Source: Escherichia phage vB_EcoM_PTE-Eco05. From it: a stretch of 64,000 nt of DNA. The position numbers and the translations under genes are program-made. Within the stretch, counting starts at the first letter, position 1. Each line of letters opens with the position of its first letter. Under the pieces are notes generated by a model. The model was not told the DNA's origin, did not search any database, and was given only the letters and a program-made list of their open reading frames with translations. This document shows, in pieces, positions 27,806 through 30,441 of the stretch. The stretch lies in sequence record PQ306573.1. One strand, written 5' to 3'.

Positions 27806-28020
27806 CTAAAGAACAGCATGAATACATTAAAGGGCTTATCTATGAATCTGAAATGGCGGCTATGATTTATGGACGCCAGATTCAACGATTAGAATCTTTG
27901 CCTCCGACTAATGACCGCTTGTTAGTTCAGTCTCGTGCTAATCTGAAAAATGAATATCAGAATAAGTGGGCAGTAGCGACTAAAGCTCTTCATGAGTATA
28001 TTGAATCTTTAGTAAAATAG
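27796..28020 (+). CDS. hypothetical protein (pseT.1 position)
   Basis: 74 aa ORF overlapping the o-spanin stop. Confidence 0.5.
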   Translation: MPMTKEQHEYIKGLIYESEMAAMIYGRQIQRLESLPPTNDRLLVQSRANLKNEYQNKWAVATKALHEYIESLVK

Positions 28021-28049
28021 TTTACAAACTCTCGGGAGCAGAGTATAAT
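28020..28049 (+). promoter_or_regulatory. early-type promoter (GTTTAC ... TATAAT)
   Basis: GTTTAC 28020-28025, 18-nt spacer, TATAAT 28044-28049, then RBS GAGGAAAT and ATG at 28078. Confidence 0.55.
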
Positions 28050-28077
28050 GCTCCTATGGATAATTGAGGAAATCTAA

Positions 28078-28377
28078 ATGAAAACATTACTAGAGAATTA
28101 CATCAAACGGTCTGATGAGTATATTGATATCTGCCGTGGAATGTCACTTGTAGATTATGGCAAAGATGCAGCAAAGGCACTAGATGAAGCAGGTAAAGCT
28201 CTTCGTAAAGCTGCTAAAGAAAAAGGGTTGGATTTGCAACAACTCAAAAGTCATATGATTAAATTTATTTCTTCAAACGTTAGAAGTACGTCAATTAATA
28301 AAAACGTTGCTGAAATTAATAAAGACCGGCGCGAGCATAACATTCGTATTCTTGAAACTTTCTTAGGAATAAAATAA
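28078..28377 (+). CDS. hypothetical early protein (99 aa)
   Basis: ORF track; own promoter and RBS. Confidence 0.55.
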   Translation: MKTLLENYIKRSDEYIDICRGMSLVDYGKDAAKALDEAGKALRKAAKEKGLDLQQLKSHMIKFISSNVRSTSINKNVAEINKDRREHNIRILETFLGIK

Positions 28378-28568
28378 TGGACCAAGCCAAAATCGATAAG
28401 TTAATCCATACGCTTGTAGCAGATATTAATACACGGGCTCTTCGTAAATCACAGAATGGCGATTCTTGGACTATGCAAGATTGCAAGAAAGGTGCTGAAC
28501 TAGGACGTGAAATTGCTAAAATTCTTGGTGGACAATTTGAATTTGCTGAAGAGGTAGTAAAACTGTGA
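28377..28568 (+). CDS. hypothetical early protein (63 aa)
   Basis: ORF track; start overlaps upstream stop, stop overlaps pseT start. Confidence 0.5.
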
Positions 28569-29464
28569 AAAAGATTATTTTGACTGTAGGTTGTCCTGGG
28601 TCTGGTAAAAGCACTTGGGCTCGTGAATTTATTGCTAAGAATCCTGGGTTCTTTAATATCAACCGCGACGATTATCGCCAATCCATCATGGGCCATGAAG
28701 AACGTGACGAGTACAAATATACTAAAAAGAAAGAAAGTATCGTAACTTATATGCAACACGATGCGGCCCATATGATTCTCTGTCAAGATGGAACTAAGGG
28801 TGTTATTATTTCTGACACCAACTTAAATCCTGAACGTCGTCTTGTCTGGGAAGAATACGCTAAACAGTGGGGGCATGAAATTGTATATCAAGTGTTCGAT
28901 GTTCCATGGACCGAACTCGTTAAGCGCAACAGCCGTCGTGGTTCAAAAGCAGTACCAATTGACGTTCTGCGTTCCATGTATGGTCATATGCGGGCCTATC
29001 TTGGCCTGCCGGTTTATAAAGGAACTCCGGGTAAACCTAAAGCGGTTATCTTCGACCTTGACGGGACTTTAGCTCTACATGTTGCTCGTGGACCTTATGA
29101 GTTAGATAAACTGTCTACAGATGAGCCAAACCCTATGGTTGTCGAATATGTTAAGATGCTTCATCAGGCCGGGTATACAATTATTACTGTAAGTGGTCGT
29201 GAATCTGGAACTAAAGAAGATTCAATGTGTTATTACGAAGCAACTAAAAAATGGATGGACACGTTTTCTATTCCATGGGAAATGCATATTCAACGTAATC
29301 AAGGTGACACTCGTAAGGACGATGTTGTTAAGGAAGAACTCTTTTGGAACTGTATTGCTCCTTATTACGATGTGAAATTATCCGTTGATGACCGTAACCA
29401 GGTTGTGGAAATGTGGCGACGTATTGGTTTAGAATGTTGGCAAGTTAACCATGGTGATTTTTAA
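28565..29464 (+). CDS. pseT: polynucleotide 5'-kinase / 3'-phosphatase
   Basis: 299 aa; Walker [13 protein letters not shown] phosphatase motif FDLDGTL; near-identical to T4 PseT as recalled. Confidence 0.95.
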
Positions 29465-29656
29465 ATGAAACGATTATATGAAGTGATTGAGGCCATCGAA
29501 CATCATAAAGAATATTTGTTTGTAGCCTGGCCTTTAGTAAATGGACAGTTCGGTATTGATGTGCTGGACTATGAGCATGAAGAACGTTTGGACGGCGGTA
29601 TATTTGATAACGTCGACCAGGCAATTGAATGGTTAAATGAAAACTATGTACGATAA
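29465..29656 (+). CDS. hypothetical protein (63 aa)
   Basis: ORF track; starts 1 nt after the pseT stop. Confidence 0.5.
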   Translation: MKRLYEVIEAIEHHKEYLFVAWPLVNGQFGIDVLDYEHEERLDGGIFDNVDQAIEWLNENYVR

Positions 29657-29861
29657 ACATCATGAAATAGAAGATGAAGCATACAAAATGCTTCGTAAAC
29701 TAGTGGGACTTAATATGAGTCCTACATTAATCAACAAACTCGCAGGAATTCGTAATGATCTGAATACTCGTTACAAAGGTGAATATCATGTAGAGTTTGT
29801 TCCTGTAGGTGAACCAACCGAGCGATTTGTTGTTCGAGTTAAAGTAAATACTGTGCACTGA
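29637..29861 (+). CDS. hypothetical protein (74 aa; start uncertain)
   Basis: ORF track; alternative ATG a few codons in. Confidence 0.45.
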   Translation: MKTMYDKHHEIEDEAYKMLRKLVGLNMSPTLINKLAGIRNDLNTRYKGEYHVEFVPVGEPTERFVVRVKVNTVH

Positions 29862-29868
29862 GGTAATT

Positions 29869-30144
29869 ATGTTCCCTAAATATTCTGAAATTGTAAAGGT
29901 AGTCTTCAGTCAGATTATTGCTAATAATATGTTTGAAGTGCTTGATAATGCAGCCGAACTCAGAGTTCATGCTCAACTAACTCATGTACTCAATGCTTTG
30001 CTCCCAGACCAAGTAGATTCTATTGCTATTACTCTTCTCCCTGGGTCTGCACACGTCATAGTGGTATTTGATCTTGACGGCGATTTAGTTATCCAATGTG
30101 ATATCAATTTCGGTACACAAAAAATTGAATGCAAAGCAATTTAA
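29869..30144 (+). CDS. hypothetical protein (91 aa)
   Basis: ORF track. Confidence 0.5.
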   Translation: MFPKYSEIVKVVFSQIIANNMFEVLDNAAELRVHAQLTHVLNALLPDQVDSIAITLLPGSAHVIVVFDLDGDLVIQCDINFGTQKIECKAI

Positions 30145-30146
30145 TG

Positions 30147-30176
30147 GTTTACAACATGGTGGAGTTGTGATACTAT
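30147..30176 (+). promoter_or_regulatory. early-type promoter (GTTTAC ... TGTGATACTAT)
   Basis: GTTTAC 30147-30152 and TACTAT 30171-30176. Confidence 0.55.
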
Positions 30177-30204
30177 AACTCTACCAACAAATGAGGAAAT
30201 AGAA

Positions 30205-30441
30205 ATGCTAAGTGAAAACCCAATTACAGTACACGAATTTCAGATTAAAGTAAAAGAATTTGCTCAAGCACTCATCAATAAAGTGTCTGAACGTTTCCAA
30301 GATGCAACATTACGAGTTATTCAAGAATCTCCACGTTCTTTTCTCATAATCGTTAATCCTAAAGATGGTGACCAAATTACTAATCTTAAATTAGGCAGTG
30401 ATGGTCTTGTTGAAGCAACTCGAGTATATGGAACACTATAA
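30205..30441 (+). CDS. hypothetical protein (78 aa)
   Basis: ORF track; RBS GAGGAAAT. Confidence 0.5.
   Translation: MLSENPITVHEFQIKVKEFAQALINKVSERFQDATLRVIQESPRSFLIIVNPKDGDQITNLKLGSDGLVEATRVYGTL

What the first reader, a model, noticed from the sequence alone, without database searches (positions are those of the whole stretch)
28020..30441. Two clusters of unannotatable small early genes flanking pseT
Upstream of pseT a dedicated early-type promoter (28020-28049) drives two ORFs (99 and 63 aa) that are translationally linked to polynucleotide kinase. Downstream, four more small ORFs (63-91 aa) and a second early promoter (30147) precede the DAHP synthase and cd genes. PseT itself counters host tRNA-cleaving defences together with RNA ligase, so co-transcribed small ORFs are plausible accessory anti-defence or host-modulating factors. 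Their content relative to T4 could not be verified from memory.
Basis: inference. Interest (0 to 1): 0.4.

Follow-up and report, generated by a model that had tools for sequence, protein, structure and literature searches.

The report
Small accessory early genes around pseT
The six small genes flanking polynucleotide kinase in this RB69-like T-even phage are real, conserved and already catalogued accessory early genes of unknown function; published transposon data hint at a host-specific role for the T4/Bas37 relatives of only one of them (cd.4).

Summary
The window is a Mosigvirus (RB69-like, ~98% identical to sequenced phages). Six small ORFs flank pseT with overlapping or abutting junctions, and two T-even early promoters sit at 28021-28049 and 30148-30176.

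- They are not unannotatable. Three are orthologues of T4 cd.4, cd.3 and cd.2. Three are RB69ORF231c, 230c and 227c, which the whole T4 genome lacks.
- All six are under purifying selection (dN/dS 0.05-0.37).
- The second promoter is the orthologue of T4 Pe133295. The first recurs almost unchanged in Gaprivervirus-type loci.
- Family, PDB-sequence and fold searches gave no function for any of the six.
- Published data: in T4, cd.2-4 have early RNA and detected protein. In T4 and Bas37, these genes and the gene taken to be the 99-aa ORF's orthologue are dispensable on K-12.
- T4 cd.4 insertions are depleted in uropathogenic strain CFE299 (log2FC -2.93, adj. p 0), with a non-significant trend in Bas37.
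- cd.4 is not needed in CFE336, where PseT is indispensable. The presumed 99-aa orthologue is needed in neither host.

The genes are best read as accessory host-adaptation genes in a hyperplastic region, not PseT cofactors. The finding is ordinary and already known; cd.4 is the one modest lead.

The parts
28021..28049 (+). T-even early (sigma-70) promoter in the 57-nt gap between pseT.1 and the 99-aa ORF: -35 TTTACA, 17-nt spacer, -10 TATAAT. An inverted repeat GGAGCA/TGCTCC brackets the -10.
   Evidence: motif 9 found against 0.31 expected. Identical in RB69, mogra and 348Ecol098PP. One mismatch in the Gaprivervirus-type loci L014, L016 and L017, where it precedes a larger ORF (172 aa in L014), the 99-aa homologue and pseT. 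Hairpin z -1.7 to -3.0.
28078..28377 (+). 99-aa basic (pI 9.6) four-helix protein, equivalent to RB69ORF231c (phrog_2364). It lies upstream of pseT in Mosigvirus, most Tequatrovirus and Gaprivervirus genomes. It is absent from T4.
   Evidence: 708 phage records; pLDDT 78; dN/dS 0.12-0.37 against diverged homologues; no T4 homologue.
28377..28568 (+). 63-aa protein, equivalent to RB69ORF230c (phrog_8683), overlapping both neighbours (TAATG, GTGA). It belongs to a rare phage-only family with the conserved core DINTRAL(R/H)K.QNG..WT..DCKKGA.LGR.
   Evidence: 240 records; only 4 clusters among 1.84 billion representatives.
28565..29464 (+). pseT, polynucleotide 5'-kinase/3'-phosphatase. It uses a GTG start that restores the N-terminal P-loop.
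   Evidence: HAD_PNKP 2.5e-58, AAA_33 6.3e-23; 74% identity to T4 PseT over residues 1-299.
29465..29656 (+). 63-aa acidic (pI 4.4) orthologue of T4 cd.4 (Pfam Phage_T4_Y13G), starting on the base after the pseT stop codon.
   Evidence: 52% identity, E 7e-23; 686 records. Literature on the T4 orthologue: early RNA and detected protein; non-essential on K-12; depleted in CFE299.
29637..29861 (+). 74-aa ORF (probable true start ATG 29646, 71 aa), equivalent to RB69ORF227c (phrog_3609). Predicted alpha-alpha-beta-beta fold. Absent from T4.
   Evidence: 337 records; pLDDT 86.
29869..30144 (+). 91-aa orthologue of T4 cd.3 (Pfam DUF7355).
   Evidence: E 1e-34; 78% identity; dN/dS 0.05 against T4.
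30148..30176 (+). T-even early promoter (TTTACA-N17-TACTAT), positional and sequence orthologue of T4 early promoter Pe133295 between cd.3 and cd.2. It is embedded in a 13-pair hairpin.
   Evidence: T4 misc_feature; z -3.0; alignment with T4, HY01 and RB69; z -6.8.
30205..30441 (+). 78-aa orthologue of T4 cd.2 (Pfam DUF7320).
   Evidence: E 1.5e-35; 65% identity; annotator's note naming cd.2.

Best explanation
The interval is part of a hyperplastic stretch of the early region of an RB69-like T-even phage. It holds six unrelated small protein-coding genes.

Expression (inferred from motifs and from T4). Host sigma-70 RNA polymerase transcribes them rightward straight after infection. It starts at early promoters at 28021 and 30148, with likely read-through from the alc promoter at 26615. 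The genes are translated through closely spaced or overlapping start/stop junctions.

Role. They are accessory genes. The relatives tested by Tn-seq in T4 and Bas37 are dispensable in a laboratory host, yet the families are kept by purifying selection. Their most likely job is host-specific adaptation, each acting alone by binding a host target, possibly including counter-defence. Only the cd.4 family (window 29465-29656, a 7.6-kDa acidic protein) has experimental support for such a role. That role does not track the requirement for PseT.

Genome dynamics. The promoter plus Shine-Dalgarno cassettes also act as conserved linkers at which small ORFs are swapped between genera.

Shown here: gene reality, orthology, promoter conservation and slot variability. 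Taken from the literature on T4 and Bas37: early expression, dispensability and the cd.4 phenotype. Inferred: transfer of those properties to this phage, and the inhibitor-type mechanism.
For: - Identity of the window: ~98% to Mosigvirus genomes with the same gene order.
- Orthology map to T4, RB69, HY01, VR20, MHG19 and Entb_45.
- No homologue of the 99-, 63- (upstream) or 74-aa ORFs anywhere in T4.
- Purifying selection on all six. No paralogy among them.
- Early-promoter motif enrichment. P30148 corresponds to T4 Pe133295. P28021 is conserved across genera, and the two leader/SD regions match at 16 of 19 positions.
- No MotA-box or late-promoter motif inside the interval.
- The slot upstream of pseT varies by lineage: nothing beyond pseT.1 in T4; the 99-aa gene in Tequatrovirus; 99 + 63 aa in Mosigvirus; a 160-aa ORF + 99 aa in VR20 (161 aa in MHG19); a 160-aa ORF + 63 aa in Kanagawavirus.
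- A natural in-frame fusion/deletion of the 99- and 63-aa genes exists.
- Literature: T4 cd.2 has early RNA and early protein; cd.3, cd.4 and pseT have early RNA and middle protein (PMC9697503 supplement).
- Literature: T4 cd.1-cd.5, pseT and pseT.1, and Bas37 genes 0051-0057, are classed non-essential on K-12.
- Literature: T4 cd.4 log2FC -2.93, adj. p 0.00000 in CFE299, while its flanking genes cd.5 (+0.06) and cd.3 (-0.30) are unaffected, so the effect is not polar. The Bas37 cd.4 orthologue shows -2.26, p 0.010.
- The PeSL concept of promoter cassettes mediating ORF shuffling in T4-like phages, including the TTTACW-N17-TAYWAT consensus (PMC2839356 and PMC4122927).
Against: - There are no data for this phage or for any Mosigvirus orthologue.
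- The Bas37 cd.4 effect is not significant after correction (adj. p 0.31).
- The HIDEN-SEQ authors built a bas37_0053 deletion construct, but their main text never mentions cd.4 or that gene.
- cd.2, cd.3, pseT.1 and the presumed 99-aa orthologue showed no significant phenotype in the three host comparisons I could read: T4 in CFE299, and Bas37 in CFE299 and CFE336. For CFT073 I saw only the Bas37 rows 0053-0057, and none of those showed an effect.
- bas37_0056 is equated with the 99-aa ORF by position, size and annotation only. The equivalent genes of Bas38 and Bas45 were checked; Bas37 itself was not.
- In the Mosigvirus AV110 toxicity screen none of the six growth inhibitors maps to this locus, provided the paper's Gp numbers follow CDS order, which I assumed. 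Which genes of this locus were tested is not stated.
Confidence: 0.7

Rival explanations
1. PseT accessory module. The genes translationally coupled to pseT (the 99-aa and 63-aa ORFs upstream, cd.4 downstream) work with PseT and RNA ligase in repairing tRNA cut by host anticodon nucleases.
For: The 99-aa gene lies immediately upstream of pseT, with a 4-nt overlap, in Tequatrovirus and Gaprivervirus genomes and in the unclassified Tevenvirinae phage MHG19. In Mosigvirus the 63-aa gene sits between them, and in Kanagawavirus the 63-aa gene takes that place. cd.4 starts on the base after the pseT stop. In CFE299, pseT, cef and cd.4 are all depleted in T4.
Against: - T4 PseT works without the 99-aa and 63-aa genes, which T4 lacks entirely.
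- Insertions in the presumed Bas37 99-aa orthologue are neutral where PseT is required: -0.02 in CFE299 and -0.63 n.s. in CFE336.
- The cd.4 orthologue is neutral (+0.28) in CFE336, where PseT insertions drop to zero (-7.58).
- A natural phage carries a truncating fusion of the 99- and 63-aa genes.
- The 63-aa family also occurs far from pseT in Klebsiella JD18-like phages, and as a C-terminal domain in Serratia phage Moabite.
- Tight packing of start and stop codons is the norm throughout T-even early regions.
Confidence: 0.08
2. The 99-aa ORF is a remnant or DNA-binding fragment of a free-standing homing endonuclease. The BASEL phage records annotate its orthologue as 'putative homing endonuclease'. 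On this reading its presence/absence pattern reflects selfish mobility, not a function for the phage.
For: The BASEL annotation. The gene is absent from T4 but present in close relatives, a pattern typical of seg/mob genes. There are weak sub-threshold hits to helix-turn-helix-like domains: IS-type HTH 2jn6 at E 0.086, TnsD at 0.021 and GapR at 0.011.
Against: - No GIY-YIG, HNH, LAGLIDADG, NUMOD or IENR domain appears at E <= 10.
- The family profile hits none of T4's Seg, Mob or I-Tev proteins (best E 0.19).
- It is only 99 aa long and is a compact four-helix model.
- It occupies the same position in 708 records, with dN/dS of 0.12-0.19 across genera. That is not the decay expected of a remnant.
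Confidence: 0.04
3. Regulators rather than inhibitors. The basic helical 99-aa protein, and possibly others, bind nucleic acid or RNA polymerase and tune early phage or host gene expression, in the way small T4 proteins such as MotB, Srh or Mrh do.
For: pI 9.6 with 20 K+R in 99 residues. All-helical model. Sub-threshold HTH/GapR-type hits. Early promoter.
Confidence: 0.12
4. Some of the ORFs are not genes, that is, chance open frames in AT-rich DNA.
For: They are short (63-99 aa), and four of the six had no Pfam hit in the library copy used.
Against: - dN/dS is well below 1 at saturated synonymous divergence for all six.
- Full-length homologues occur in 240-708 phage genomes for the four families searched.
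- Indels are in-frame.
- Shine-Dalgarno motifs precede at least the 99-aa ORF, pseT, cd.3 and cd.2.
- The T4 Cd.2, Cd.3 and Cd.4 proteins were detected by mass spectrometry.
Confidence: 0.02

Closest known systems
RB69 pseT region: pseT.1, RB69ORF231c, RB69ORF230c, pseT, cd.4, RB69ORF227c, cd.3, cd.2 (NC_004928)
   Same: Same genes in the same order, with 94-100% protein identity and identical promoters.
   Different: RB69 lacks the DAHP synthase between cd.2 and cd. RB69ORF231c is annotated from an internal start (78 aa), although the 99-aa frame is conserved.
T4 pseT-cd region: pseT.1, pseT, cd.5, cd.4, cd.3, Pe133295, cd.2, cd.1, cd
   Same: cd.4, cd.3, cd.2, pseT, pseT.1 and cd are orthologous (52-82% identity). 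The early promoter between cd.3 and cd.2 is conserved, including its hairpin.
   Different: T4 has no 99-aa, upstream 63-aa or 74-aa gene anywhere and no promoter directly upstream of pseT. T4 has cd.5, cd.1 and 31.2, which have no counterpart in the corresponding stretch of the window.
PeSL cassettes (promoter-early stem-loop) that mediate ORFan shuffling in T4-like phages (Arbiol et al. 2010, PMC2839356; Comeau et al. 2014, PMC4122927)
   Same: Both promoters fit the published T4/PST-type consensus TTTACW-N17-TAYWAT. Both are associated with a stem-loop, lie in intergenic gaps next to lineage-variable small ORFs, and carry a similar SD leader.
   Different: Here the inverted repeats bracket or overlap the -10 element instead of forming a separate adjacent stem-loop. 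No U-tract follows, and no terminator-like site was found. Recombination at these sites was not shown.
Characterised small T-even counter-defence proteins found by conditional essentiality, e.g. T4 NrdC.1 (anti-Septu) and Bas37_0203 (anti-Druantia III), bioRxiv 10.1101/2025.11.20.689424
   Same: Small early proteins with no recognisable domain, dispensable on K-12. T4 cd.4 is depleted in the same clinical isolate (CFE299) in which nrdC.1 is.
   Different: No defence system has been paired with cd.4. The other five genes have no conditional phenotype in the tables read. Nothing has been tested in a Mosigvirus.

Membership tests
T4 Cd.4 family (Pfam PF26883 Phage_T4_Y13G) | Full-length sequence homology to T4 Cd.4 | tested here: met
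   tblastn 52% identity over residues 1-63, E 7e-23. Conserved core WP..DG..G.DV.DY across genera. PF26883 is recorded for the 63-aa gene at the same position in a near-identical Mosigvirus contig.
T4 Cd.4 family (Pfam PF26883 Phage_T4_Y13G) | Position downstream of pseT and upstream of cd.3 | tested here: met
T4 Cd.3 family (Pfam DUF7355) | Pfam model match above the gathering score | tested here: met
   118.8 bits against a cut-off of 27, E 1e-34, full length. 78% identity to T4 Cd.3.
T4 Cd.2 family (Pfam DUF7320) | Pfam model match above the gathering score | tested here: met
   121.5 bits against a cut-off of 27, E 1.5e-35. 65% identity to T4 Cd.2.
RB69ORF231c / 230c / 227c families (phrog_2364, phrog_8683, phrog_3609) | Full-length profile match and the same position as in RB69 | tested here: met
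   PHROG E-values 1.6e-48, 2.2e-42 and 3.5e-41. 96-100% identity to the RB69 frames.
T-even early (sigma-70) promoter | -35 (G)TTTAC(A/T), 17-nt spacer, -10 TAYWAT, intergenic, on the early-gene strand | tested here: met
   Three sites (26615, 28021, 30148) in this stretch are all intergenic. The motif occurs 9 times against 0.31 expected.
T-even early (sigma-70) promoter | Orthology to an experimentally listed T4 early promoter | tested here: met
   P30148 aligns with T4 Pe133295, which is noted in the T4 record. P28021 has no T4 counterpart, because T4 has no gap there.
T-even early (sigma-70) promoter | Mapped transcription start and early kinetics in this phage | not testable with these tools
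   This needs dRNA-seq or primer extension. In T4 the orthologous genes have early RNA (PMC9697503 supplement).
PeSL regulatory cassette | Early promoter combined with a stable stem-loop in one intergenic module | tested here: inconclusive
   Hairpins are present: -18.5 kcal/mol, z -3.0 at 30148, and -15.3 kcal/mol, z -1.7 at 28021. They overlap the -10 instead of lying beside the promoter, and they lack a U-tract.
PeSL regulatory cassette | Flanks ORFs that differ between related phages | tested here: met
   Slot contents differ between T4, Tequatrovirus, Mosigvirus, Gaprivervirus and Kanagawavirus.
Homing endonuclease (for the 99-aa ORF, as annotated in BASEL phages) | GIY-YIG, HNH or LAGLIDADG catalytic domain, or Seg/Mob-type DNA-binding modules | tested here: not met
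   No such Pfam domain at E <= 10 in 16 family members. No profile hit to any T4 ORF. No PDB or fold match.
Phage anti-defence protein | Gene dispensable in a naive host but required in a host carrying a given defence system | not testable with these tools
   Literature only. T4 cd.4 is non-essential on K-12 and depleted in CFE299. No defence system has been paired with it. The Mosigvirus orthologue is untested. The other five genes have no phenotype in the tables read.
Known defence-system components (PADLOC) and NCBIfam families | Profile match | tested here: not met
   PADLOC gave no hit at E <= 0.1. NCBIfam gave nothing near a curated cut-off; the only hit was MoaD family, 13.5 bits against a cut-off of 49.5, for cd.2.

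The most novel reading that the evidence does not exclude
The cd.4 family, represented here by the 63-aa acidic protein at 29465-29656, is a new stand-alone counter-defence or host-adaptation factor. It would neutralise an as yet unidentified system of certain uropathogenic E. coli (CFE299-type strains, which carry Retron VI and two Septu loci). It would act independently of PseT. Its conservation directly after pseT in roughly 690 T-even genomes would then reflect co-regulation, not a physical partnership.
Probability: 0.3. Interest if true: 0.5.

Novelty: already known. Interest (0 to 1): 0.22.

Why it matters
As it stands this is routine annotation. The genes have been in GenBank since the RB69 genome was deposited and recur in hundreds of T-even phages.

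The useful outcome is a precise map of which ORFs are T4 orthologues and which are lineage-specific, plus a correction of three ideas:
- that the ORFs are unannotatable;
- that they are PseT cofactors;
- that the 99-aa gene is a homing endonuclease.

If the cd.4 lead holds, it would add one more small domain-less protein to the growing list of T-even counter-defence factors. It would also give a handle on whichever host system it opposes. Mosigviruses are candidates for phage therapy, so knowing which accessory genes set host range has some practical value.

Tried and rejected
- Literature searches by gene name (pseT.1, cd.2-cd.5) returned nothing or only Crohn's and coeliac disease papers.
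- Pfam, NCBIfam and PADLOC scans gave no functional family for any of the six.
- PDB sequence searches gave nothing below E 0.08.
- The exhaustive HMMER search with the upstream 63-aa family found only four clusters, all from phage. This gave no bacterial context to exploit.
- Two apparent fusions of the 74-aa protein to a tRNA-synthetase B5 domain (P0053, P0056) look like chimeric metagenome assemblies and were set aside.
- Paralogy among the six ORFs was tested by hhalign and rejected; the best probability was 24%.
- Rfam found no RNA family in 26000-33000. The repeat search found nothing beyond the 12-nt repeat and the shared SD leader.
- The search for related loci with PseT returned only 7 viral contigs.
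- The list of the 45 AV110 proteins tested for toxicity is not held.
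Full report
**What the window is.** Megablast of 27500-31600 finds 139 phage records covering at least 80% of the query. The best are Mosigvirus genomes at 97.5-98.5% identity (JM10, G2469, mogra, O157 typing phages). Their annotation and that of RB69 show the gene order on the + strand:
- denA, rnlA, alc, pseT.3 (i-spanin), pseT.2 (o-spanin), pseT.1
- the 99-aa ORF, the upstream 63-aa ORF, pseT
- a second 63-aa ORF, the 74-aa ORF, the 91-aa ORF, the 78-aa ORF
- DAHP synthase, cd, 31.1, gene 31

**Check of the observation.** All ORFs exist at the stated coordinates. 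The sequence shows three tight junctions:
- The 99-aa stop overlaps the 63-aa start (TAATG at 28375-28379).
- The 63-aa stop overlaps the pseT GTG start (GTGA at 28565-28568).
- The next ORF begins on the base after the pseT stop.

The GTG start is right, because it restores the N-terminal [18 protein letters not shown]-loop and aligns with T4 PseT from residue 1.

The two promoters are TTTACA-N17-TATAAT at 28021-28049 and TTTACA-N17-TACTAT at 30148-30176. A loose sigma-70 scan is not enriched in this AT-rich DNA (26 found, 26 expected). The published T4-type early consensus TTTACW-N17-TAYWAT (PMC4122927) is enriched: 9 occurrences against 0.31 expected, 8 of them on the + strand. No MotA-box or late-promoter motif lies inside the interval.

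**Are the ORFs genes?** Nei-Gojobori comparisons with diverged homologues give dN/dS of 0.05-0.37 for all six, at synonymous divergence near saturation. That is the same range as pseT and cd. The 99-aa family shows in-frame indels confined to one loop, with 44 invariant columns. Homologues occur in 708 phage records for the 99-aa ORF, 240 for the upstream 63-aa ORF, 337 for the 74-aa ORF and 686 for cd.4. They are real genes.

**Relation to T4.** tblastn against the T4 locus shows these orthologies:

| Window ORF | T4 gene | Identity |
|---|---|---|
| 29465-29656 | cd.4 | 52% |
| 29869-30144 | cd.3 | 78% |
| 30205-30441 | cd.2 | 65% |
| 27796-28020 | pseT.1 | 82% |

cd.3 and cd.2 are Pfam DUF7355 and DUF7320. 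I then fetched the whole T4 genome. Neither tblastn nor family HMMs find any homologue of the 99-aa, upstream 63-aa or 74-aa ORFs, or of the DAHP synthase. In RB69 those three ORFs are RB69ORF231c, 230c and 227c. So every ORF is already catalogued: three as T4 orthologues of unknown function and three as RB69-type ORFs of unknown function.

**Promoters and plasticity.**
- P30148 is the orthologue of the T4 early promoter Pe133295 recorded between cd.3 and cd.2. The alignment shows a conserved -35, -10 and Shine-Dalgarno, and a 9-bp inverted repeat that stays pairable through G.U-compatible changes.
- P28021 has no T4 counterpart, because T4 pseT.1 abuts pseT.
- P28021 recurs with one mismatch in Gaprivervirus-type loci. 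There it precedes a larger ORF (172 aa in L014), the 99-aa homologue and pseT, although the proteins are only about 57% identical.
- In HY01-type Tequatroviruses, pseT.1, the 99-aa homologue and pseT overlap with no promoter between them.
- In Kanagawavirus Entb_45, a 160-aa ORF and a 63-aa homologue precede pseT.

The slots on both sides of pseT are therefore hyperplastic and bounded by conserved promoter/SD cassettes. The two leaders match at 16 of 19 positions. This fits the PeSL model of ORFan shuffling (PMC2839356, PMC4122927), although the hairpins here overlap the -10 and lack U-tracts.

A natural contig (Logan ERR7568838) carries an in-frame fusion of residues 1-44 of the 99-aa protein to residues 25-63 of the 63-aa protein. 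The fusion was made by deletion between a 12-nt direct repeat, GCTCTTCGTAAA, at 28198 and 28437.

**Search for function.**
- PHROGs places each ORF in a family of unknown function.
- Pfam, NCBIfam and PADLOC give no functional family.
- There are no significant PDB sequence matches.
- The six are not paralogues.
- The upstream 63-aa family is tiny: four clusters among 1.84 billion representatives. These are a Mosigvirus form, a JD18-type form located elsewhere in the genome, the C-terminus of a 158-aa Serratia phage Moabite protein, and the fusion variant.
- BASEL phage records call the 99-aa orthologue a 'putative homing endonuclease'. I found no nuclease or Seg/Mob-type domain and no similarity to any T4 homing endonuclease, so that label is unsupported.

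**Experimental literature.**
- In T4, cd.2 and pseT.1 have early RNA and early protein. cd.3, cd.4 and pseT have early RNA and middle protein (PMC9697503 supplement).
- HIDEN-SEQ transposon sequencing (bioRxiv 10.1101/2025.11.20.689424) classes T4 cd.1-cd.5, pseT and pseT.1 as non-essential on K-12. It does the same for Bas37 genes 0051-0057, which include the gene upstream of pseT.

The conditional Tn-seq results I could read are as follows (log2 fold change against K-12).

| Gene | T4 in CFE299 | Bas37 in CFE299 | Bas37 in CFE336 |
|---|---|---|---|
| pseT | -5.27, adj. p 0 | -1.90, adj. p 0 | -7.58, adj. p 0 |
| cd.4 | -2.93, adj. p 0.00000 | -2.26, p 0.010, adj. 0.31 | +0.28 |
| cd.5 | +0.06 | -0.39 (cd.5 position, not verified) | +0.05 (cd.5 position, not verified) |
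| cd.3 | -0.30 | -1.03, n.s. | -1.18, p 0.053 |
| cd.2 | -0.01 | not assigned | not assigned |
| pseT.1 | -0.15 | +0.12 | +0.13 |
| presumed 99-aa orthologue | absent from T4 | -0.02 | -0.63, n.s. |

Because cd.5 and cd.3 flank cd.4 in T4 and are unaffected, the cd.4 effect is not polar. In the same T4 table cef is at -3.99 and nrdC.1 at -4.80. The authors built a bas37_0053 (cd.4) deletion construct, but the main text never mentions cd.4. The selected CFE299 defence loci are Retron VI and two Septu systems.

Bas37 gene 0056 is equated with the 99-aa ORF from its position, size and annotation, and from the equivalent genes of Bas38 and Bas45, which my tblastn hits directly. Bas37 itself was not compared.

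A toxicity screen of 45 early proteins of Mosigvirus AV110 found six growth inhibitors (Gp94, 135, 204, 208, 214, 263). This locus is CDS 50-57 by order in the record, so none of the inhibitors is here if the paper's numbering follows that order, which I assumed. The list of tested genes is not available.

**Conclusion.** The interval holds six catalogued accessory early genes in a recombination-prone part of the T-even early region.
- The label 'unannotatable' is not.
- The specific idea that the co-transcribed ORFs assist PseT is contradicted, for the 99-aa gene and for cd.4, by Tn-seq in close relatives.
- The general idea of host-specific or anti-defence roles remains the most likely, but it is evidenced only for cd.4, and only in T4.

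The feature is already known, and I rate its interest as low, with cd.4 as a modest testable lead.

Noticed in passing
window 30562-31554: A class I DAHP synthase (Pfam DAHP_synth_1, E 2e-75) sits where T4 has cd.1. It is absent from RB69 and from the whole T4 genome. It is present in many Mosigvirus genomes and, directly after cd.2, in Kanagawavirus Entb_45 (77% identity). It looks like an auxiliary metabolic gene of patchy distribution.
   Followed up: partly
window 30428-30553: The 120-nt gap between cd.2 and the DAHP synthase holds a 41-aa ORF that overlaps the end of cd.2. Among the records inspected it is annotated as a CDS only in phage AV110 (WPK33894.1). It has no family hit. A 6-bp palindrome, ATGAGA/TCTCAT, lies at its start.
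   Followed up: partly
window 26611-26676: The mechanical 187-aa 'alc' ORF starts inside an early-promoter motif (26615-26643) that lies between the rnlA stop and a GAGGAG Shine-Dalgarno. The real alc start is ATG 26674 (166 aa), as called in AV110 and in the Logan contig. Some records (mogra) annotate the long form.
   Followed up: yes
window 25432, 26615, 28021, 30148, 40280 (promoter motifs): Five of the eight + strand early-promoter motifs carry hairpin-forming inverted repeats inside the spacer or around the -10 (at most 2% of shuffles fold as well; mean z -2.5 over all eight). The hairpin at 30148 is kept in T4 through G.U-compatible changes. The function is unknown; candidates are attenuation or stabilisation of read-through RNA, or recombination.
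   Followed up: partly
window 28198-28209 and 28437-28448; locus L018 3001-3252: A 12-nt direct repeat, GCTCTTCGTAAA (encoding ALRK in both genes), links the 99-aa and 63-aa ORFs. One natural Mosigvirus contig (Logan ERR7568838, 56 kb) has the 239-bp deletion between the repeats. This gives an in-frame 83-aa fusion protein that still overlaps pseT.
   Followed up: yes
locus L001 3689-4465 (OR062947.1); locus L004 10317-10553 (RB69): Two annotation errors in public records. The pseT CDS of 348Ecol098PP starts at an internal ATG and so loses the kinase P-loop, because the true start is GTG. RB69ORF231c is annotated as 78 aa although the 99-aa frame is conserved in all relatives.
   Followed up: yes
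loci L025 1501-1803 and L026 1301-1603 (BASEL phages Bas45, Bas38): The orthologue of the 99-aa ORF is annotated 'putative homing endonuclease' in BASEL phage records, and hence in the HIDEN-SEQ tables. No nuclease or Seg/Mob-type domain or similarity was found, so the label appears unfounded.
   Followed up: yes
window 32434-32461 and 32824-32831: A MotA-box middle-promoter motif (TATGCTTTA-N12-TATTAT) lies just upstream of gene 31. A late-promoter TATAAATA lies just after it.
   Followed up: no
window 32125-32433: The 31.1 orthologue is a WYL_2 / Sm-like SH3 beta-barrel protein (Pfam E 1.9e-9). It is annotated as 'tail fibers protein' in AV110, probably through a weak PHROG tail-fibre hit (phrog_10657, E 1e-8).
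   Followed up: no
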